NCBI RefSeq assembly: GCF_003018115.1
Contig: NZ_CP027457.1
Direction: 5' to 3' (one strand)
Length of the DNA stretch: 64,000 bases
DNA from: Escherichia coli
GTDB lineage: Bacteria; Pseudomonadota; Gammaproteobacteria; Enterobacterales; Enterobacteriaceae
Position numbers and translations under genes: made by a program. A model generated the notes under the pieces. That model saw only the letters and a program-made list of their open reading frames with translations, was not told the DNA's origin and did no database searches. Shown here one piece after another: positions 32,136 to 41,483 of the stretch (its first letter is position 1; every line of letters starts with the position of its first letter).

Positions 32136-33266
32136 ATGTTCCAGTTATCCGTACAGGACATCCATCCGGGCGAAAAGGCCGGAGACAAAGAAGAGGCGAT
32201 TCGCCAGGTCGCTGCGGCGCTGGTGCAGGCCGGTAATGTAGCAGAAGGCTACGTCAATGGCATGCTGGCGCGCGAACAGCAAACCTCAACGTTCCTCGGC
32301 AATGGTATTGCTATTCCACACGGCACTACCGACACCCGCGATCAGGTGCTGAAAACCGGCGTTCAGGTATTTCAGTTCCCGGAAGGCGTCACTTGGGGTG
32401 ACGGTCAGGTAGCGTACGTAGCGATCGGTATTGCTGCCAGCTCGGATGAGCATCTGGGCCTGCTACGCCAGCTGACCCACGTACTGAGCGATGATTCCGT
32501 TGCTGAACAACTGAAGTCAGCAACAACAGCAGAAGAACTTCGCGCATTGCTGATGGGCGAAAAGCAGAGTGAGCAGCTGAAGCTCGACAACGAAATGCTG
32601 ACGCTGGATATCGTCGCCAGCGATCTGCTGACTCTTCAGGCGCTGAACGCTGCGCGTCTGAAAGAAGCGGGGGCAGTTGACGCCACTTTCGTCACCAAAG
32701 CCATCAATGAACAACCGCTGAACCTCGGACAGGGCATCTGGCTGAGCGATAGCGCCGAAGGCAATTTGCGTAGCGCGATTGCTGTAAGCCGTGCGGCAAA
32801 TGCTTTTGATGTGGACGGCGAAACGGCAGCCATGCTGGTGAGTGTGGCGATGAATGACGATCAGCCCATTGCGGTTCTTAAGCGTCTCGCTGATTTGTTG
32901 CTCGACAATAAAGCTGACCGCTTGCTGAAAGCGGATGCGGCAACGTTGCTGGCGCTGCTGACCAGCGATGATGCGCCGACCGACGACGTGTTAAGCGCGG
33001 AGTTTGTGGTGCGCAATGAACATGGCCTGCATGCTCGTCCAGGTACCATGCTGGTCAACACCATTAAACAATTTAACAGTGATATTACCGTGACAAACCT
33101 TGATGGCACCGGCAAACCGGCAAACGGACGTAGTCTGATGAAAGTTGTGGCACTTGGCGTTAAGAAAGGTCATCGCCTACGCTTTACCGCCCAGGGTGCA
33201 GATGCTGAACAGGCGCTGAAAGCAATCGGCGACGCTATCGCTGCTGGTCTTGGGGAGGGCGCATAA
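32136..33266 (+). CDS. fruB: Fructose PTS multiphosphoryl transfer protein (IIA-FPr)
   Basis: ORF track 376 aa. Confidence 0.95.
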
Positions 33267-34204
33267 TGAGCAGACGTGTTGCTACTATCACCCTTAATCC
33301 GGCTTATGACCTTGTTGGTTTCTGCCCGGAAATTGAACGCGGCGAAGTGAACCTGGTGAAAACCACCGGTCTGCATGCGGCGGGTAAAGGCATCAACGTG
33401 GCCAAAGTATTAAAAGACCTGGGAATTGATGTCACCGTTGGCGGCTTCCTGGGTAAAGACAATCAGGATGGTTTTCAGCAACTGTTCAGCGAGCTGGGCA
33501 TTGCCAACCGTTTCCAGGTTGTACAGGGGCGCACCCGAATTAACGTTAAGCTGACGGAAAAAGACGGCGAAGTGACCGACTTCAACTTCTCGGGTTTTGA
33601 AGTCACCCCCGCCGACTGGGAACGCTTTGTGACTGATTCTCTGAGCTGGCTCGGTCAGTTCGATATGGTCTGTGTCAGCGGAAGCTTACCGTCAGGCGTC
33701 AGCCCGGAAGCGTTCACCGACTGGATGACTCGCCTGCGTAGTCAGTGTCCTTGCATTATCTTTGATAGTAGCCGTGAAGCGTTAGTAGCAGGTTTGAAAG
33801 CGGCACCGTGGCTGGTGAAACCTAACCGCCGCGAGTTGGAAATCTGGGCAGGCCGTAAACTGCCTGAAATGAAAGATGTGATTGAAGCTGCACATGCGCT
33901 ACGTGAACAAGGTATTGCGCATGTTGTTATTTCACTGGGTGCCGAAGGCGCGCTTTGGGTTAATGCCTCCGGCGAATGGATCGCCAAACCACCGTCAGTC
34001 GATGTCGTAAGCACCGTTGGCGCAGGGGATTCTATGGTTGGTGGCCTGATTTATGGCTTGCTGATGCGTGAATCCAGTGAACACACACTGCGTCTGGCGA
34101 CAGCTGTTGCAGCCCTGGCGGTAAGTCAAAGCAATGTGGGTATTACCGATCGTCCGCAGTTGGCCGCAATGATGGCGCGCGTCGACTTACAACCTTTTAA
34201 CTGA
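33266..34204 (+). CDS. fruK: 1-phosphofructokinase
   Basis: ORF track 312 aa. Confidence 0.95.
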   Translation: MSRRVATITLNPAYDLVGFCPEIERGEVNLVKTTGLHAAGKGINVAKVLKDLGIDVTVGGFLGKDNQDGFQQLFSELGIANRFQVVQGRTRINVKLTEKDGEVTDFNFSGFEVTPADWERFVTDSLSWLGQFDMVCVSGSLPSGVSPEAFTDWMTRLRSQCPCIIFDSSREALVAGLKAAPWLVKPNRRELEIWAGRKLPEMKDVIEAAHALREQGIAHVVISLGAEGALWVNASGEWIAKPPSVDVVSTVGAGDSMVGGLIYGLLMRESSEHTLRLATAVAALAVSQSNVGITDRPQLAAMMARVDLQPFN

Positions 34205-34220
34205 CAGCAGGAGAGGCATA

Positions 34221-35912
34221 ATGAAAACGCTGCTGATTATTGACGCTAATCTCGGTCAGGCACGCGCCTATATGGCGAAGACCCTGCTGGGCGCGGCGGC
34301 GCGAAAAGCAAAACTGGAAATCATCGACAATCCGAACGACGCAGAAATGGCGATTGTTCTCGGTGATTCCATCCCGAATGACAGCGCGCTGAACGGTAAA
34401 AATGTCTGGCTGGGTGATATTTCCCGGGCAGTTGCGCACCCTGAGCTGTTCCTGAGTGAAGCCAAAGGCCATGCGAAACCTTACACTGCGCCGGTCGCTG
34501 CGACAGCACCGGTTGCTGCCAGCGGTCCGAAACGCGTAGTTGCGGTGACTGCTTGCCCGACTGGCGTAGCACACACCTTTATGGCGGCTGAAGCCATTGA
34601 AACCGAAGCGAAAAAACGTGGCTGGTGGGTGAAAGTTGAAACCCGTGGTTCTGTTGGCGCGGGCAATGCAATCACCCCTGAAGAAGTCGCAGCAGCGGAT
34701 CTGGTGATTGTGGCGGCAGATATCGAAGTGGATCTGGCGAAATTTGCTGGTAAACCGATGTATCGCACCTCTACCGGTCTGGCGCTGAAGAAAACTGCGC
34801 AGGAACTGGATAAAGCGGTTGCTGAAGCAACGCCGTATGAACCAGCGGGCAAAGCTCAAACAGCGACCACTGAAGGTAAGAAAGAGAGTGCAGGCGCTTA
34901 CCGTCACTTGCTGACGGGCGTCTCTTACATGCTGCCGATGGTTGTTGCAGGTGGTCTGTGTATCGCGCTTTCTTTTGCTTTTGGTATCGAAGCGTTTAAA
35001 GAGCCGGGTACGTTGGCAGCGGCGCTGATGCAGATTGGCGGTGGTTCAGCCTTTGCGCTGATGGTGCCGGTACTGGCAGGTTATATTGCCTTCTCCATTG
35101 CCGATCGTCCGGGCCTCACGCCGGGGCTGATTGGCGGTATGCTGGCTGTCAGCACCGGTTCTGGCTTCATTGGCGGTATTATTGCGGGCTTCCTGGCTGG
35201 TTACATTGCGAAGTTAATCAGTACGCAACTGAAACTGCCACAGAGTATGGAGGCGCTGAAACCAATCCTGATCATTCCGCTAATTTCCAGTCTGGTGGTC
35301 GGTCTGGCGATGATCTACCTGATCGGTAAACCGGTTGCTGGCATTCTCGAAGGGCTGACTCACTGGCTGCAGACCATGGGGACTGCGAATGCGGTTCTGC
35401 TGGGGGCGATCCTCGGTGGCATGATGTGTACTGACATGGGCGGTCCGGTAAATAAAGCAGCGTACGCGTTCGGTGTGGGTCTGCTGAGTACTCAAACCTA
35501 TGGCCCGATGGCGGCGATTATGGCGGCAGGTATGGTGCCACCGCTGGCAATGGGTCTGGCAACAATGGTGGCGCGTCGCAAATTCGACAAAGCGCAGCAG
35601 GAAGGTGGCAAAGCCGCTCTGGTATTGGGACTGTGCTTCATTTCGGAAGGTGCAATTCCGTTTGCTGCTCGTGATCCGATGCGTGTGCTGCCGTGCTGTA
35701 TCGTGGGTGGGGCGCTGACTGGCGCAATCTCAATGGCGATTGGTGCGAAACTGATGGCACCGCACGGTGGTCTGTTTGTTCTGCTGATCCCTGGCGCTAT
35801 TACGCCGGTACTGGGTTACCTGGTAGCAATTATTGCCGGTACGCTGGTGGCGGGTTTGGCCTATGCCTTCCTGAAACGTCCGGAAGTGGACGCAGTAGCG
35901 AAAGCAGCGTAA
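34221..35912 (+). CDS. fruA: Fructose PTS permease IIBC
   Basis: ORF track 563 aa. Confidence 0.95.
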   Translation: MKTLLIIDANLGQARAYMAKTLLGAAARKAKLEIIDNPNDAEMAIVLGDSIPNDSALNGKNVWLGDISRAVAHPELFLSEAKGHAKPYTAPVAATAPVAASGPKRVVAVTACPTGVAHTFMAAEAIETEAKKRGWWVKVETRGSVGAGNAITPEEVAAADLVIVAADIEVDLAKFAGKPMYRTSTGLALKKTAQELDKAVAEATPYEPAGKAQTATTEGKKESAGAYRHLLTGVSYMLPMVVAGGLCIALSFAFGIEAFKEPGTLAAALMQIGGGSAFALMVPVLAGYIAFSIADRPGLTPGLIGGMLAVSTGSGFIGGIIAGFLAGYIAKLISTQLKLPQSMEALKPILIIPLISSLVVGLAMIYLIGKPVAGILEGLTHWLQTMGTANAVLLGAILGGMMCTDMGGPVNKAAYAFGVGLLSTQTYGPMAAIMAAGMVPPLAMGLATMVARRKFDKAQQEGGKAALVLGLCFISEGAIPFAARDPMRVLPCCIVGGALTGAISMAIGAKLMAPHGGLFVLLIPGAITPVLGYLVAIIAGTLVAGLAYAFLKRPEVDAVAKAA

Positions 35913-36335
35913 TAAAAGGTGTGTTACAGGGCAGAAATTTCCTGCCCTGTATCATTGGATGAGCGCAAAGGGAATGACCGGTTTGTAAATGTAATTTTAT
36001 GAATTTAAATGGTTTTATCTTTCAGTAGAAACCTGAAACGTTCATCAAACACTAAGGTTATTTCCTCAAGGGCAGATTATTTTCTGCCCTTTTTTAGTGT
36101 TCCTGTTCTGTGCATCCCGTCACAAATTCCTCGCTTTTGTAATTCAGGCATTTAATCGCATTTTGTGAGCCTGCTCAAATCTGCCCATTTTGCCTCTCTG
36201 GCGGTAATTTACTTTACGTAAAACATGCATACTATGAGCACATGTTTAAATATGAACACATGTTTAAACCGTCTTTGCAGTATCTATATTCTTGTGGATT
36301 GACAGGGTTGGTAATTTTTTACCAGAGGACGTGCT

Positions 36336-37277
36336 ATGCGCGAAAAGGATTATGTCGTAATTATAGGTTCGGCGAATATTGATGTCGCCGGATATTCACA
36401 TGAATCATTAAATTATGCGGATTCAAATCCAGGTAAAATAAAATTTACGCCTGGTGGAGTTGGGCGCAATATTGCACAAAACCTGGCGTTGCTGGGTAAC
36501 AAAGCCTGGCTACTGAGCGCAGTAGGCAGTGATTTTTATGGTCAATCGCTGCTAACGCAAACCAATCAATCTGGCGTTTATGTCGATAAATGCCTGATTG
36601 TGCCGGGAGAAAATACGTCTAGTTATTTATCATTACTCGATAATACCGGTGAAATGCTGGTTGCTATAAATGACATGAATATTAGCAACGCTATTACAGC
36701 TGAATATCTCGCACAGCACCGTGAATTTATTCAGAGGGCAAAGGTCATTGTCGCGGACTGTAATATCAGTGAAGAGGCACTGGCATGGATTCTGGATAAT
36801 GCCGCCAACGTACCCGTATTTGTCGATCCGGTTTCAGCGTGGAAATGTGTCAAAGTGCGCGACCGTCTAAATCAGATCCACACTCTGAAGCCAAACCGCC
36901 TTGAAGCGGAAACCCTGAGTGGGATTGCGCTGTCAGGGCGTGAAGATGTGGCAAAAGTTGCTGCCTGGTTCCATCAACATGGCCTGAACCGACTGGTATT
37001 GAGCATGGGCGGCGATGGCGTTTATTACAGTGATATCAGCGGTGAAAGTGGCTGGTCTGCCCCGATCAAAACCAATGTTATTAATGTTACCGGAGCGGGC
37101 GATGCCATGATGGCGGGACTTGCTTCGTGTTGGGTAGACGGAATGCCGTTTGCCGAATCTGTTCGTTTCGCACAGGGATGTTCGTCAATGGCGCTCTCCT
37201 GTGAATACACCAATAACCCCGATTTATCGATTGCCAACGTTATATCGTTAGTGGAGAACGCAGAATGTCTGAATTAA
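36336..37277 (+). CDS. psuK: Pseudouridine kinase (YeiC)
   Basis: ORF track 313 aa; PfkB-family sugar kinase. Confidence 0.9.
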   Translation: MREKDYVVIIGSANIDVAGYSHESLNYADSNPGKIKFTPGGVGRNIAQNLALLGNKAWLLSAVGSDFYGQSLLTQTNQSGVYVDKCLIVPGENTSSYLSLLDNTGEMLVAINDMNISNAITAEYLAQHREFIQRAKVIVADCNISEEALAWILDNAANVPVFVDPVSAWKCVKVRDRLNQIHTLKPNRLEAETLSGIALSGREDVAKVAAWFHQHGLNRLVLSMGGDGVYYSDISGESGWSAPIKTNVINVTGAGDAMMAGLASCWVDGMPFAESVRFAQGCSSMALSCEYTNNPDLSIANVISLVENAECLN

Positions 37278-38203
37278 AAATTTCCCCTGAATTATTACAA
37301 ATTTCCCCGGAAGTGCAGGACGCTTTAAAAAACAAAAAACCGGTTGTGGCGCTGGAATCGACCATTATTTCTCACGGGATGCCGTTCCCACAAAATGCCC
37401 GGACCGCAATTGAAGTAGAAGAAACTATTCGTAAACAGGGCGCAGTACCTGCCACTATCGCAATTATTGGCGGCGTGATGAAAGTGGGTTTAAGCAAAGA
37501 AGAAATTGAATTACTGGGTCGTGAAGGGCATAACGTGACCAAAGTTAGTCGTCGCGATTTACCTTTTGTTGTTGCCGCCGGAAAAAATGGCGCAACCACT
37601 GTGGCTTCAACGATGATTATTGCGGCGCTTGCCGGAATTAAAGTATTTGCCACCGGGGGAATTGGTGGTGTGCATCGCGGGGCGGAACATACCTTCGATA
37701 TTTCTGCCGATTTGCAAGAACTGGCAAATACTAATGTCACCGTTGTTTGTGCCGGGGCGAAATCTATTCTCGATTTAGGATTAACCACTGAGTATTTAGA
37801 AACCTTCGGTGTGCCGTTAATTGGCTATCAGACTAAAGCGCTGCCTGCGTTTTTCTGCCGTACCAGCCCGTTTGACGTCAGCATTCGTCTCGACAGCGCC
37901 AGTGAAATTGCCCGTGCAATGGCGGTGAAGTGGCAAAGCGGGCTGAACGGTGGCCTCGTGGTAGCGAACCCGATCCCGGAACAGTTTGCGATGCCGGAAC
38001 ACACTATCAATGCGGCGATCGATCAGGCGGTAGCTGAAGCTGAAGCGCAGGGTGTTATTGGTAAAGAAAGTACGCCATTCCTGCTGGCGCGCGTTGCTGA
38101 ACTGACCGGCGGTGACAGCCTGAAATCCAACATCCAGCTGGTGTTCAACAACGCCATTCTGGCGAGTGAAATTGCCAAAGAATACCAGCGTCTCGCGGGT
38201 TAA
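37265..38203 (+). CDS. psuG: Pseudouridine-5'-phosphate glycosidase (YeiN)
   Basis: ORF track 312 aa. Confidence 0.9.
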   Translation: MSELKISPELLQISPEVQDALKNKKPVVALESTIISHGMPFPQNARTAIEVEETIRKQGAVPATIAIIGGVMKVGLSKEEIELLGREGHNVTKVSRRDLPFVVAAGKNGATTVASTMIIAALAGIKVFATGGIGGVHRGAEHTFDISADLQELANTNVTVVCAGAKSILDLGLTTEYLETFGVPLIGYQTKALPAFFCRTSPFDVSIRLDSASEIARAMAVKWQSGLNGGLVVANPIPEQFAMPEHTINAAIDQAVAEAEAQGVIGKESTPFLLARVAELTGGDSLKSNIQLVFNNAILASEIAKEYQRLAG

Positions 38204-38296
38204 TTTCTGACGGGCAGAAAGCCGTCGCCCGTACTCATCAAACATACCAAAACCTGGCGCTGACGCCGGGTTTACTGGCATGAAGGGAAAATCATT

Positions 38297-39547
38297 ATGG
38301 ACATAATGAGAAGTGTTGTGGGGATGGTGGTGTTACTGGCAATAGCATTTCTGTTGTCAGTGAATAAAAAGAGCATCAGTTTGCGTACGGTTGGAGCCGC
38401 ACTACTGCTGCAAATTGCTATTGGTGGCATCATGCTCTATTTTCCGCCGGGAAAGTGGGCTGTAGAACAGGCGGCATTAGGCGTTCATAAAGTGATGTCT
38501 TACAGTGATGCCGGTAGCGCCTTCATTTTTGGTTCGCTGGTCGGGCCGAAAATGGATGTCCTCTTTGACGGTGCGGGTTTTATCTTCGCCTTTCGCGTAC
38601 TCCCGGCGATTATCTTCGTCACTGCGCTCATTAGTCTGCTGTACTACATTGGCGTGATGGGGCTGCTGATTCGCATCCTTGGTAGCATTTTCCAGAAAGC
38701 CCTCAACATCAGCAAAATCGAATCTTTTGTTGCGGTTACCACTATTTTCCTCGGGCAAAATGAGATCCCGGCGATCGTTAAACCGTTTATCGATCGCATG
38801 AATCGCAACGAGTTGTTTACCGCAATTTGTAGCGGGATGGCGTCCATTGCGGGTTCGATGATGATTGGTTATGCCGGAATGGGCGTACCAATTGACTACC
38901 TGTTGGCGGCATCGCTGATGGCGATCCCCGGCGGTATTTTGTTTGCACGTATTCTTAGTCCGGCAACCGAGCCTTCGCAGGTCACATTTGAAAATCTGTC
39001 GTTCAGTGAAACGCCGCCAAAAAGCTTTATCGAAGCGGCGGCGAGCGGTGCGATGACCGGGTTGAAAATCGCCGCCGGTGTGGCGACGGTGGTCATGGCG
39101 TTTGTCGCAATTATTGCGCTGATTAATGGCATTATCGGCGGAATTGGCGGCTGGTTTAGTTTTACCAATGCTTCTCTGGAAAGTATTTTTGGCTATGTGC
39201 TGGCACCGCTGGCGTGGATCATGGGTGTGGACTGGAGTGATGCCAATCTTGCGGGTAGCCTGATTGGGCAGAAACTGGCGATTAACGAATTCGTCGCTTA
39301 CCTGAGTTTCTCCCCATACCTGCAAACGGGCGGCACGCTGGAAGTGAAAACCATTGCGATTATCTCCTTTGCGCTTTGTGGTTTTGCTAACTTTGGTTCT
39401 ATCGGTGTTGTCGTTGGCGCATTTTCGGCTATTTCGCCAAAACGTGCACCGGAAATCGCTCAGCTTGGTTTACGGGCGCTGGCAGCAGCAACGCTTTCCA
39501 ACCTGATGAGCGCGACCATTGCCGGGTTCTTTATTGGTTTAGCTTGA
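38297..39547 (+). CDS. psuT: Nucleoside (putative pseudouridine) transporter (YeiM), NupC family
   Basis: ORF track 416 aa; paralog of 41484..42734. Confidence 0.9.
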   Translation: MDIMRSVVGMVVLLAIAFLLSVNKKSISLRTVGAALLLQIAIGGIMLYFPPGKWAVEQAALGVHKVMSYSDAGSAFIFGSLVGPKMDVLFDGAGFIFAFRVLPAIIFVTALISLLYYIGVMGLLIRILGSIFQKALNISKIESFVAVTTIFLGQNEIPAIVKPFIDRMNRNELFTAICSGMASIAGSMMIGYAGMGVPIDYLLAASLMAIPGGILFARILSPATEPSQVTFENLSFSETPPKSFIEAAASGAMTGLKIAAGVATVVMAFVAIIALINGIIGGIGGWFSFTNASLESIFGYVLAPLAWIMGVDWSDANLAGSLIGQKLAINEFVAYLSFSPYLQTGGTLEVKTIAIISFALCGFANFGSIGVVVGAFSAISPKRAPEIAQLGLRALAAATLSNLMSATIAGFFIGLA

Positions 39548-39614: not shown

Positions 39615-40274
39615 TTACTGCATCATCCCGGAGAATTTATTCTCCGGGTCCATCTCCAGCGCCAGCCCTGACAACTGCTTTCTGTTTTTAATGAGATATC
39701 CTTTCTTGCTTTTAATTAATAAACCGTCGTGAATGAATTGCGCGAGAACATATAAAAGATGTCGATAAGAAACGCCTAAATACTCTGCCGCTTGCGTATG
39801 CTTTTCGTGATAAAGATCACCTTCCTGCGAGAGTAATATAAAAGCTGCCAGGCGGTTCACTAACGGAAATGATTGATTCTGAGTTAAAGAAACAATATTG
39901 CGATAATTTTTATGGCTTAAAGAAACGCAGAGCTTTCGTAAAAATAGGGTATCGTTTAATAACAGCGGACGGTAATGTTTCATAGGGAGCGCAAGGCACC
40001 AACACTCTTCAATCGCCTGTACTGCACGTGGTTCATGGTCTTTATCGATTAACTCAATCTCGCCAATAAAACAGGGGGCGGCAAAGAAATCGATCAGCGA
40101 CACGCGACCATTAGCTAGCGTGGCGTAAAGCCTGGCGCGGCCTCGCGTCAGGTAAAACAGCCAGGACGGCTGTTGCCCTTCCTGCACAATGTAGTCACGC
40201 GCTAAAAAATGAAACAGCCGCGTATCGGCTGAAACATCCGTTAAAAAGCAATCCTTAAACGCGGATTCACTCAT
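39615..40274 (-). CDS. yeiL: CRP/FNR-family transcriptional regulator YeiL
   Basis: ORF track frame; probable start [10 protein letters not shown] (219 aa). Confidence 0.85.
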
Positions 40275-40442
40275 CAATTGCAGCTTAAGATCATTATTGT
40301 GGATTTCTTTCACGATGTTTATCCGCTGTGAGATTTCTCATATTTAGCATACGTACGCTGTTGTTAAGATTCAATCATCGGCCCGGTCGAATTTTCTTTG
40401 CTGTAGAAAAAATAACGCAACTGGAAACAGAGGAAATAAACA

Positions 40443-41384
40443 ATGGAAAAGAGAAAAATTATTCTGGATTGTGATCCGGGTCATGATGATGCTATTGCAA
40501 TGATGATGGCAGCGAAACATCCGGCAATAGATTTATTAGGCATCACTATTGTAGCGGGTAATCAGACGCTTGATAAAACATTAATTAATGGACTGAATGT
40601 TTGCCAGAAACTGGAGATTAATGTTCCGGTTTATGCGGGGATGCCGCAACCCATTATGCGTCAACAAATCGTTGCCGATAATATTCACGGTGAAACCGGA
40701 CTGGATGGCCCGGTATTCGAGCCGCTGACCCGCCAGGCAGAAAGTACCCACGCGGTGAAATACATCATTGATACCCTGATGGCAAGCGATGGCGATATCA
40801 CTCTGGTGCCGGTTGGTCCGCTTTCAAATATCGCGGTGGCAATGCGTATGCAACCCGCGATCCTGCCCAAAATCCGTGAAATTGTGCTAATGGGCGGCGC
40901 TTACGGTACAGGCAACTTCACGCCATCTGCCGAGTTCAACATCTTTGCTGACCCGGAAGCCGCACGCGTGGTGTTCACCTCCGGCGTTCCATTAGTGATG
41001 ATGGGCCTCGATCTTACCAACCAGACCGTTTGCACCCCGGACGTAATTGCTCGGATGGAAAGGGCAGGCGGCCCTGCCGGAGAGCTGTTCAGCGACATAA
41101 TGAACTTCACTCTCAAAACCCAGTTCGAAAACTACGGCCTGGCTGGCGGCCCGGTGCACGACGCCACCTGCATCGGTTATCTGATTAACCCTGATGGCAT
41201 TAAAACCCAGGAGATGTACGTCGAAGTGGACGTCAACAGTGGCCCTTGTTATGGGCGTACCGTCTGCGACGAGCTGGGCGTTCTTGGCAAGCCCGCTAAT
41301 ACCAAAGTCGGCATCACTATTGATACCGACTGGTTCTGGGGCTTAGTCGAAGAGTGCGTGCGCGGCTACATCAAAACCCATTAA
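40443..41384 (+). CDS. rihB: Pyrimidine-specific ribonucleoside hydrolase (YeiK)
   Basis: ORF track 313 aa; DXDXXXDD motif. Confidence 0.9.
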
Positions 41385-41483
41385 GTGTTGATAACAAGCC
41401 GGGCCGGTATCGCAAGATGCAGGCCTGGCTATTTCTGATGGGCAGAAAGCCGTCGCCCAATATGACATGAAGAGATAATCACT

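What the first reader, a model, noticed from the sequence alone, without database searches (positions are those of the whole stretch)
36225..36275. Direct repeat CACATGTTTAAA (x2) in the psuK promoter region
Two copies of a 12-mer 11 bp apart, upstream of the psuKG operon, could be binding sites for a local regulator such as the adjacent CRP/FNR-type YeiL.
Basis: seen in the sequence. Interest (0 to 1): 0.2.

Follow-up and report, generated by a model that had tools for sequence, protein, structure and literature searches.

The report
Two-site operator at psuK promoter
The repeated 12-mer is real and is best read as a pair of conserved repressor-binding sites sitting on the start of the E. coli pseudouridine-breakdown operon, most likely bound not by YeiL but by the uncharacterised kinase-like regulator YeiI.

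Summary
CACATGTTTAAA occurs twice (36239-36250 and 36257-36268). The gap is 6 bp, not 11, and the true unit is an 18-bp tandem, TATGA[G/A]CACATGTTTAAA x2 (36233-36268).

Each unit holds a 12-bp imperfect palindrome, RAACA-N2-TGTTY: O1 at 36236-36247 and O2 at 36254-36265, centres 18 bp apart. Both lie directly downstream of a conserved promoter (-35 TTTACT 36208-13, -10 TACTAT 36230-35).

The same site pair, with the same spacing and position, recurs upstream of pseudouridine operons in Escherichia, Citrobacter, Raoultella, Buttiauxella, Yersinia, Serratia, Pasteurella, Orbaceae, Aquitalea and Paludibacterium; in Salmonella and Enterobacter O1 is strong and O2 degenerate.

The only regulator gene that always accompanies the sites is a winged-helix + PfkB-kinase protein. 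It is the first operon gene in distant taxa, and the separate paralog yeiI (42790-43878, minus strand) in Enterobacteriaceae. yeiL is adjacent only in E. coli.

YeiI-type proteins keep the pseudouridine-binding residues but have an altered catalytic loop (GAGD to GADD).

Best model: YeiI is a pseudouridine-sensing repressor of a probably CRP-dependent psuKGT promoter. The recurrent adaptive psuK/fruA SNP maps to the -35 (TTTACT to TTGACT).

Nothing here is experimentally shown: the transcription start is predicted, and I found no binding data for the sites or for YeiI.

The parts
36233..36268 (+).
36236..36247 (.). Operator O1, GAGCA-CA-TGTTT, an imperfect palindrome of the RAACA-N2-TGTTY type. 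It starts 1 nt after the -10 hexamer and is centred on the predicted transcription start (about 36242).
   Evidence: Conserved in the alignment. A weight matrix built from non-enterobacterial sites ranks it 5th of 63,985 window positions.
36254..36265 (.). Operator O2, GAACA-CA-TGTTT, centred 18 bp downstream of O1 (about +18)
   Evidence: Top-scoring position in the whole window with the matrix built from Aquitalea, Paludibacterium, Pasteurella and Orbaceae sites; conserved
36208..36213 (+). -35 hexamer TTTACT (invariant ATTTACWTT across genera). Position 36210 is the site of the recurrent adaptive SNP (NC_000913.2 2257444 A>C, equal to T>G on this strand), which gives TTGACT.
   Evidence: papers PMC7518454, PMC9509342, PMC7858067; 5 complete genomes carry the SNP
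36230..36235 (+). -10 hexamer TACTAT, 16-bp spacer from the -35; predicted start about 36242 (inferred, not measured)
   Evidence: Conserved TAYYAT. The same -10/O1 abutment is seen in Aquitalea and Paludibacterium.
36164..36179 (.). Proximal CRP-like site TGTGA-gcctgc-TCAAA, centre about -70.5 from the predicted start; its centre lies exactly 36 bp upstream of the -35 in all Enterobacteriaceae loci examined
36109..36124 (.). Distal CRP-like site TGTGC-atcccg-TCACA, centre about -125.5
36336..39547 (+). Regulated operon: psuK (36336-37277), psuG (37265-38203), psuT (38297-39547)
42790..43878 (-). yeiI, 362 aa, N-terminal winged helix (HTH_24) plus PfkB domain. This is the proposed regulator. 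It keeps the pseudouridine-binding S30/N143/K170 equivalents but has GADD in place of the catalytic GAGD.
It is part of a yeiL-rihB-nupX block that is absent between psuT and yeiI in the other genera.

Best explanation
The repeat is a two-site operator. Each 18-bp unit carries a 12-bp palindrome of the form RAACA-N2-TGTTY. O1 is centred on the predicted transcription start and O2 lies 18 bp downstream, both directly after the -10 hexamer of the psuKGT promoter. The proposed binder is a dimer of the winged-helix/PfkB protein YeiI, one dimer per palindrome. Binding there would block open-complex formation or promoter escape. YeiI keeps the pseudouridine-recognition residues of the kinase PsuK but has a changed phosphoryl-transfer loop, so it probably senses pseudouridine (or its 5'-phosphate) and releases the DNA when the ligand is present. 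Full expression probably also needs CRP at the conserved sites at about -70.5 and -125.5. In Yersinia, Serratia, Pasteurella, Orbaceae, Aquitalea and Paludibacterium, one protein (wHTH fused to a catalytically canonical PsuK) appears to do both jobs and to autoregulate its own operon. In Enterobacteriaceae the roles seem to have split between PsuK (enzyme, no HTH) and YeiI (regulator). The near-perfect direct repeat (17/18) is particular to the main E. coli allele; other lineages keep the two palindromes with less similar flanks. What is shown: sequence, conservation, synteny and residue patterns. What is inferred: the transcription start, the binding protein, repression, and the ligand.
For: (1) The promoter elements and both sites are conserved across Escherichia, E. 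albertii, Citrobacter, Raoultella and Buttiauxella, while the sequence between O2 and the ribosome-binding site diverges.
(2) wHTH-PfkB genes are the first gene of [wHTH-PfkB]-[psuG]-[NupC transporter] operons in 7 of 7 distant taxa examined. Six of the seven have two RAACA-N2-TGTTY sites 18-19 bp apart immediately upstream of the start codon. In Yersinia and Serratia this requires using the start codon shared with orthologs rather than the annotated one.
(3) A weight matrix built only from the 8 sites of Aquitalea, Paludibacterium, Pasteurella and Orbaceae ranks O2 first and O1 fifth among 63,985 positions of the E. coli window. The top hit in every fetched locus of 5-17 kb falls upstream of the first psu gene.
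(4) yeiI lies convergent to psuT in E. albertii, Citrobacter, Buttiauxella, Enterobacter and Salmonella. In Salmonella the yeiI + psuTGK cassette sits in a different genomic context, without nfo or fruA, so the four genes travel together.
(5) The HTH region, including ISRSxVAxHIM, is nearly identical between YeiI and the operon-encoded fusions, which predicts the same DNA motif.
(6) YeiI-type proteins keep S30, N143 and K170, the residues that specify pseudouridine in PsuK (PMC9061257). Across the clade they also show N250D, T252F and G255D in the NxTGAGD loop, whereas the fusions keep the canonical loop.
(7) The recurrent adaptive SNP maps to the -35 (TTTACT to TTGACT), which supports this promoter assignment (PMC7518454, PMC9509342).
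(8) An 11-bp deletion in one E. coli strain (L007) destroys the rival downstream promoter-like match but leaves the upstream promoter and both sites intact.
Against: I found no binding, footprint, ChIP or expression data for YeiI in the searchable literature; it is described as uncharacterised (PMC9061257, PMC12506659). The transcription start is predicted, not measured. In gut and long-term stationary-phase evolution experiments the same single -35 SNP recurs, and loss-of-function mutations in yeiI were not reported. Other repressors (frlR, dgoR, srlR) are hit by many different alleles (PMC9509342 Supplementary Data 7). So loss of YeiI alone may not give the benefit: the promoter may be intrinsically weak, already induced in those conditions, or YeiI may not be a simple repressor. 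O1 in E. coli is a weaker match (GAGCA). Xenorhabdus shows only one strong site, far upstream at -287. In Salmonella and Enterobacter O2 is degenerate.
Confidence: 0.65

Rival explanations
1. The two sites are bound by YeiL, the adjacent CRP/FNR-family regulator.
For: yeiL lies 68 bp beyond psuT in E. coli and is a genuine CRP-family protein. Its regulon is poorly known. PsuG abundance co-varies with FNR- and CRP-regulon proteins in one proteomic study (PMC11039860).
Against: The sites are conserved in genera where yeiL is not adjacent, and in Beta- and Gammaproteobacteria with no CRP-family gene within about 5 kb. Half-site spacing is N2, not the N4 or N6 of the family. Separate conserved CRP-like sites exist upstream and would be the natural targets for a CRP-type protein.
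Confidence: 0.07
2. The repeat acts at the RNA level. If transcription starts near 36242, the two units form an 11-bp stem-loop at the extreme 5' end of the psuK mRNA. That could stabilise the transcript or serve as a small-RNA (RprA) docking site.
For: The leader 36242-36345 folds with z = -3.5 against shuffles, and the first hairpin is made from the repeat units (inverted repeat I8). psuK is listed as an RprA target common to RIL-seq and TRIC-seq (10.1101/2025.09.11.675593).
Against: Every conserved position is explained by two self-palindromic DNA sites, and the pairs in the putative stem are mostly invariant. In distant taxa each site is a palindrome on its own, and O1 and O2 are not complementary to each other except in Aquitalea. 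A duplex prediction with RprA was no better than shuffled targets. This role could coexist with the operator role.
Confidence: 0.1
3. The sites are operators for some other, unlinked transcription factor. One example would be a RecA-dependent, LexA-like repressor, given the resemblance to the Gram-positive GAAC-N4-GTTC SOS box.
For: PsuG and PsuK fall by up to log2 -6 in recA mutants under ciprofloxacin, alongside DinI, YebG and RecN (PMC11039860). E. albertii O2 is CGAACATATGTTC.
Against: No E. coli-type LexA box (CTGT-N8-ACAG, up to 1 mismatch) lies in the promoter. No LexA-like gene is linked to the locus. The same proteomic lists include many FNR/CRP-dependent proteins, so the effect may be indirect. 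The linked wHTH-PfkB gene explains the phylogenetic distribution without a further factor.
Confidence: 0.1
4. The repeat is a neutral slipped-strand duplication with no function.
For: It is a head-to-tail 18-mer with one mismatch, the signature of a local duplication, and the near-identity of the two units is specific to the main E. coli allele.
Against: Two sites at the same position and spacing exist in lineages where the units are only about 60-80% alike. They extend to Betaproteobacteria. The sequence is invariant in thousands of E. coli genomes while neighbouring intergenic sequence varies.
Confidence: 0.03

Closest known systems
BirA (biotin protein ligase / bio operon repressor) and NadR: enzymes with an N-terminal winged helix that repress the operon of their own pathway
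   Same: An N-terminal wHTH is fused to a small-molecule-handling enzyme domain. The palindromic operator overlaps the promoter or start site. The ligand of the enzyme domain sets DNA binding. The operon-encoded wHTH-PsuK fusions of Yersinia, Pasteurella and Aquitalea look like exactly this design.
   Different: The enzyme domain is a PfkB ribokinase-family kinase. The pathway is catabolic rather than biosynthetic, so the ligand should release the DNA rather than promote binding. In E. coli the regulator (YeiI) is a separate paralog with an altered catalytic loop. None of this has been tested biochemically.
ROK-family repressors NagC and Mlc (HTH fused to a sugar-kinase-like sensor domain)
   Same: A kinase fold is re-used as the sensor of a repressor controlling sugar or nucleoside catabolic genes. 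There are two operators per promoter, and CRP co-activates.
   Different: The kinase superfamily differs (ROK/ASKHA versus PfkB/ribokinase). NagC operators are about 23-bp AT-rich sites that work by looping over about 90 bp, not adjacent 12-bp palindromes 18 bp apart.
CRP/FNR-family operators (the family of YeiL)
   Same: Palindromic sites with 5-bp half-sites in a catabolic promoter, and the gene is adjacent in E. coli.
   Different: The spacer is N2 rather than N4 or N6. The sites lie at +1 and +18 rather than at activator positions. The sites persist where yeiL is not linked.
CytR/DeoR control of nucleoside catabolic operons in E. coli
   Same: A specific repressor combined with CRP sites in promoters of nucleoside uptake and catabolism genes.
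   Different: CytR binds between tandem CRP dimers, not over the start site. Its motif (TGCAA-type repeats, from my own knowledge) is absent here. The sites extend to Betaproteobacteria.

Membership tests
Transcription-factor operator (repressor type) of a catabolic promoter | Conserved across species at a fixed position relative to the promoter while flanks diverge | tested here: met
   O1 abuts the -10 in Enterobacteriaceae, Aquitalea and Paludibacterium; O2 lies 18-19 bp downstream
Transcription-factor operator (repressor type) of a catabolic promoter | Dyad symmetry or a regular repeat compatible with an oligomeric DNA-binding protein | tested here: met
   RAACA-N2-TGTTY. Perfect palindromes occur in E. 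albertii (GAACATATGTTC), Salmonella (AAACATATGTTT) and Yersinia (CCAAACACTTGTTTGG)
Transcription-factor operator (repressor type) of a catabolic promoter | Overlaps the core promoter or transcription start | tested here: inconclusive
   The sites follow a conserved -35/-10 pair whose -35 is the target of the adaptive up-mutation. No measured 5' end was available.
Transcription-factor operator (repressor type) of a catabolic promoter | Demonstrated protein binding and an effect on transcription | not testable with these tools
   Needs EMSA or footprinting and reporter assays
YeiI / wHTH-PfkB regulon (proposed) | The regulator gene co-occurs with the motif across taxa | tested here: met
   All 20 loci outside the window carrying the motif (L006-L024, L026-L027) encode a wHTH-PfkB protein in or next to the psu operon where the locus extends far enough
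YeiI / wHTH-PfkB regulon (proposed) | The DNA-recognition region is conserved between proteins predicted to bind the same motif | tested here: met
   residues 1-56 are nearly identical, including ISRSxVAxHIM
YeiI / wHTH-PfkB regulon (proposed) | The sensor domain retains the ligand pocket for the pathway substrate | tested here: met
   S30, N143 and K170 (PsuK numbering; roles from PMC9061257) are invariant in YeiI-type proteins
CRP/FNR-family (YeiL) binding site | Inverted 5-bp half-sites separated by 6 bp (CRP) or 4 bp (FNR) | tested here: not met
   O1 and O2 half-sites are separated by 2 bp. Read in an FNR register the site is TGAAC-N4-GTTTA, 2/5 per half-site against TTGAT.
CRP/FNR-family (YeiL) binding site | The regulator gene is linked to the sites across species | tested here: not met
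   yeiL is adjacent only in E. coli
E. coli LexA (SOS) box | CTGT-N8-ACAG core | tested here: not met
   no match with up to 1 mismatch anywhere in 36100-36340
Rfam-described cis-regulatory RNA | Match to a curated covariance model | tested here: not met
   nothing in 35900-36400 at E up to 1

The most novel reading that the evidence does not exclude
wHTH-PfkB proteins form an undescribed class of enzyme-derived transcription factors. In many Proteobacteria the pseudouridine kinase itself would be the autorepressor of the psu operon, a BirA-like bifunctional enzyme/regulator. In Enterobacteriaceae a duplication would have split this into a pure enzyme (PsuK) and a pure pseudouridine sensor (YeiI), which would give an orphan E. 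coli y-gene a function, an operator motif and a ligand.
Probability: 0.55. Interest if true: 0.6.

Novelty: new variant of a known kind. Interest (0 to 1): 0.45.

Why it matters
If correct, this assigns a function, a DNA motif (RAACA-N2-TGTTY, two sites 18-19 bp apart) and a likely ligand to YeiI, one of the remaining uncharacterised predicted transcription factors of E. coli K-12. It also supplies the missing regulatory logic of the pseudouridine catabolic operon.

It gives a mechanistic frame for one of the most reproducible adaptive mutations seen when E. coli colonises the mouse gut or survives long-term stationary phase. That is the psuK/fruA A>C SNP, which I map to the -35 hexamer (TTTACT to TTGACT) of the promoter that these operators guard.

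It also offers a clean example of a bifunctional enzyme/repressor splitting into an enzyme and a sensor by duplication. The repeat itself is otherwise an ordinary kind of element, a promoter-proximal operator.

Tried and rejected
- **Downstream promoter-like match** (TTTAAA-16-TATATT, 36263-36290). Rejected as the main promoter. It is not conserved outside Escherichia, and an 11-bp deletion in one E. coli strain breaks it.
- **Rfam scan of 35500-36800.** No relevant family.
- **RprA-psuK duplex prediction.** No better than shuffled targets, so uninformative.
- **E. coli LexA box search.** None in the promoter.
- **Motif elsewhere in the window.** No comparable site upstream of yeiL/rihB or nfo-yeiI. 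The core 12-mer at 20616-20627 lies inside a coding region and is probably chance.
- **Reading the hairpin before the ribosome-binding site as a sigma-54 promoter** (TGGCA-N7-TTGC in Citrobacter). Rejected because E. coli lacks the GC element and the start would fall on the ATG.
- **Literature searches** for a known psu regulator or for YeiI function found nothing. Preumont et al. 2008 is not held.
- **Supplementary Data 16 of PMC9509342** (psuK expression in the SNP clone) is truncated in the held copy.
- **Not run:** I did not model the YeiI structure, because it would not decide DNA binding.

Full report
**Identity of the window**

The region is E. coli chromosome, not K-12 but 97.6% identical to it here. 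The gene order is fruB-fruK-fruA (32136-35912), psuK (36336-37277), psuG (37265-38203) and psuT (38297-39547), all on the + strand. Then come yeiL (39615-40313, minus strand), rihB, nupX, yeiI (42790-43878, minus strand) and nfo.

**Observation**

CACATGTTTAAA occurs exactly twice, at 36239-36250 and 36257-36268, and nowhere else in the window even with one mismatch. The copies are 6 bp apart, not 11.

The repeat is really an 18-bp head-to-tail tandem, TATGAGCACATGTTTAAA / TATGAACACATGTTTAAA, at 36233-36268 and 17/18 identical. The 12-mer pair alone is not significant: 10 of 100 shuffles did as well. A 17/18 tandem 18-mer is expected about 1e-3 times per 64 kb (my estimate), and only three tandem arrays of that score exist in the window.

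**Conservation within E. coli**

The 423-bp fruA-psuK spacer is found in 4231 of 5426 complete genomes. In four diverse strains every base from 36205 to 36289 is invariant, while the 5' part of the spacer varies. The 50 bp spanning the repeat are 100% identical in 3275 of 3932 genomes.

A further 142 genomes carry a diverged, E. albertii-like allele. It keeps the layout with less similar units: TATGAACATGTGTTTAAA / TATGAACACGTGCTCTAA.

**Conservation across genera**

A scan of one genome per species with PsuK returned 11 loci from Escherichia species, E. albertii, Citrobacter, a Raoultella MAG and Buttiauxella. Aligning their upstream regions shows these invariant or near-invariant blocks:

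- ATTTACWTT, which holds the -35 hexamer TTTACT.
- TAYYAT, the -10 hexamer TACTAT, 16 bp further on.
- Site O1, RARCAYRTGTTY, starting 1 nt after the -10.
- Site O2, GAACAYRTGYTY, 18 bp after O1.

Sequence between O2 and the ribosome-binding site is not conserved between genera. Each site is an imperfect palindrome, RAACA-N2-TGTTY; E. albertii O2 is the perfect GAACATATGTTC. So the "direct repeat" is a pair of adjacent palindromic sites, and their near-identity is a peculiarity of the main E. coli allele.

The promoter-like match that the simple scan found downstream (TTTAAA-16-TATATT) is not conserved. An 11-bp deletion in one E. coli strain breaks it (L007).

**Promoter assignment and the adaptive SNP**

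The psuK/fruA spacer is a known hotspot of parallel evolution. The same A>C change at NC_000913.2 position 2257444 arose in 5 of 7 mice in one study, in old and young mice in another, and in three long-term stationary-phase populations, where it is labelled psuKp (PMC9509342, PMC7518454, PMC6731689, PMC7858067).

I calibrated the offset between the two K-12 coordinate systems on four srlR mutations from the same tables. Only an offset of 1978 reproduces all four amino-acid changes. I assumed no indel differences between the two K-12 reference versions between psuK and srlR. On that basis the SNP lies 126 nt upstream of the psuK ATG, at window 36210, and is T>G on the psuK strand.

It converts TTTACT to TTGACT, a textbook -35 up-mutation of exactly the hexamer that is conserved across genera. 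Five complete genomes carry it: the lab strains ER1821R, ER2683, S17-1 and ST18, and one pigeon isolate.

With the -10 at 36230-36235 the start should be near 36242. That puts O1 on +1 and O2 at about +18, which are classic repressor positions. The start itself is inferred; I found no measured 5' end.

**Upstream activator sites**

Two CRP-like sites are conserved. The first is TGTGA-N6-TCAWA at 36164-36179. Its centre lies exactly 36 bp before the -35 in every Enterobacteriaceae locus examined, or about -70.5 from the predicted start, a standard class I position. The second is TGTGY-N6-TCWCA at 36109-36124, at about -125.5.

**Which regulator?**

yeiL is adjacent only in E. coli. In E. albertii, Citrobacter, Buttiauxella, Enterobacter and Salmonella the gene convergent with psuT is instead yeiI. 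It encodes 362-364 aa with an N-terminal winged helix (Pfam HTH_24) and a PfkB kinase domain. E. coli has a yeiL-rihB-nupX block inserted between psuT and yeiI.

In Salmonella the four genes (yeiI and psuT-psuG-psuK) sit together in an unrelated context, without nfo or fruA.

Homologs of YeiI at 43-55% identity were traced in Yersinia, Serratia, Xenorhabdus, Pasteurella, Orbaceae, Aquitalea and Paludibacterium. In all seven the wHTH-PfkB gene is the first gene of a [wHTH-PfkB]-[psuG](-[NupC transporter]) operon, overlapping psuG.

Upstream of these operons the same motif recurs in pairs:

| Taxon | Sequence | Spacing |
|---|---|---|
| Aquitalea | ATAAACAAATGTTTTATGCGCAAACATTTGTTTA | 19 bp |
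| Paludibacterium | GCAAACAAATGTTTGAGTAGCGGACAATTGTTTG | 19 bp |
| Pasteurella | CAAACAAAAGTTGAAAAATAAACAGGTGTTGA | 18 bp |
| Orbaceae | TAAACTAATGTTGAAAAACAAACAGGTGTTTA | 18 bp |
| Yersinia and Serratia | two sites straddling an over-extended annotated start codon | 18 bp |

In Aquitalea and Paludibacterium a TTGACC-17/18-TAnnAT promoter directly abuts O1, as in E. coli.

**Independent test**

I built a weight matrix from the eight sites of the four non-enterobacterial taxa only. It ranks O2 first and O1 fifth among 63,985 positions of the E. coli window. In every fetched locus of 5-17 kb, including Salmonella and Enterobacter, the top hit lies upstream of the first psu gene.

**Protein evidence**

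The first 56 residues, including ISRSxVAxHIM, are nearly identical between YeiI and the operon-encoded fusions, so the same DNA motif is expected.

The fusions keep the canonical PfkB catalytic loop NxTGAGD. All YeiI-type proteins of Enterobacteriaceae have DxFGADD instead (N250D, T252F, G255D in PsuK numbering). They retain S30, N143 and K170, the residues shown structurally to specify pseudouridine in PsuK (PMC9061257). This is the pattern of a kinase turned sensor.

YeiI is still described as uncharacterised (PMC9061257, PMC12506659) and listed only as a hypothetical transcription factor (PMC6055005). NCBIfam calls it "sugar kinase", and no solved structure includes the HTH. Full-text searches found no described regulator of psuKG.

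**Model**

YeiI dimers bind O1 and O2 and occlude the psuKGT start. Pseudouridine, or its 5'-phosphate, releases them, and CRP supplies activation.

The recurrent -35 SNP raises intrinsic promoter strength. That only this SNP recurs, and not yeiI knockouts, suggests either that the promoter rather than repression is limiting where pseudouridine is present, or that the simple-repressor picture is incomplete. I count this as evidence against the model.

**Rivals**

- **YeiL.** Disfavoured by synteny and by site geometry (N2 spacer).
- **An RNA role.** The two units would form an 11-bp stem at the mRNA 5' end, the leader folds with z = -3.5, and psuK is an RprA target. But conservation is explained by self-palindromic DNA sites, and pairing shows little independent covariation. 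This role could coexist with the operator.
- **A RecA-dependent regulator.** PsuG and PsuK drop up to 64-fold in recA mutants under ciprofloxacin (PMC11039860). No LexA box is present, and the same lists contain many CRP/FNR-dependent proteins.
- **Neutral duplication.** Excluded by the comparative data.

**Verdict**

The "regulator binding site" reading is supported. The named regulator is probably wrong, and the better candidate is YeiI.

The element is an ordinary kind of thing, a promoter operator. It does point to an unstudied class of wHTH-PfkB regulators and ties into a well-documented adaptive mutation. All functional statements remain predictions.

Noticed in passing
window 36210: The highly recurrent adaptive SNP psuK/fruA 2257444 A>C (mouse gut and long-term stationary phase) maps here and turns the conserved -35 TTTACT into TTGACT. 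Five complete genomes, four of them lab strains, carry it.
   Followed up: yes
window 36309-36324: Stem-loop TGGTAA-TTTT-TTACCA immediately 5' of the psuK Shine-Dalgarno. It is kept as TGGCAA..TTGCCA in Citrobacter and Buttiauxella with a compensatory T:A to C:G change. Function unknown.
   Followed up: partly
window 35922-35954 and 36068-36097: Two similar hairpins (AGGGCAGA...TCTGCCCT) follow fruA. Only the second has a T-run, which implies a fruA 3' UTR of about 180 nt or a duplicated terminator.
   Followed up: no
window 36034-36045: TGAAACGTTCAT fits the Cra (FruR) half-consensus in this strain but not in K-12 (TTCAAACGTTCAT); it lies downstream of fruA.
   Followed up: no
psuK/psuG proteins (literature): PsuG and PsuK are among the proteins most reduced in recA mutants under ciprofloxacin in several clinical isolates (PMC11039860), yet no LexA box is present in the promoter. 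The effect may be indirect, for example via pseudouridine released by RecA-dependent lysis, or via CRP/FNR status.
   Followed up: partly
psuK mRNA (literature): psuK is listed as an RprA small-RNA target common to RIL-seq and TRIC-seq (bioRxiv 10.1101/2025.09.11.675593). My duplex prediction could not locate a site.
   Followed up: partly
window 39615-42734: The yeiL-rihB-nupX block lies between psuT and yeiI in E. coli and is absent there in E. albertii, Citrobacter, Buttiauxella, Enterobacter and Salmonella. It looks like a lineage-specific insertion that split the yeiI/psuKGT cassette.
   Followed up: partly
L024 (E. coli strain 504211) 5133-6258: An alternative, E. albertii-like psuK promoter allele is present in about 142 complete E. 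coli genomes. In this strain psuK is truncated by an IS1 insertion. About 1050 of 5426 genomes show no match to the promoter at all.
   Followed up: partly
window 37273-37312: A 21-bp tandem repeat (1.9 copies) lies at the psuK stop / psuG 5' coding overlap.
   Followed up: no
window 43055-43070 and 20616-20627: The second-best weight-matrix hit in the window lies inside the yeiI coding sequence. The core GAACACATGTTT also occurs inside a 364-aa ORF at 20.6 kb. Both are probably chance.
   Followed up: partly
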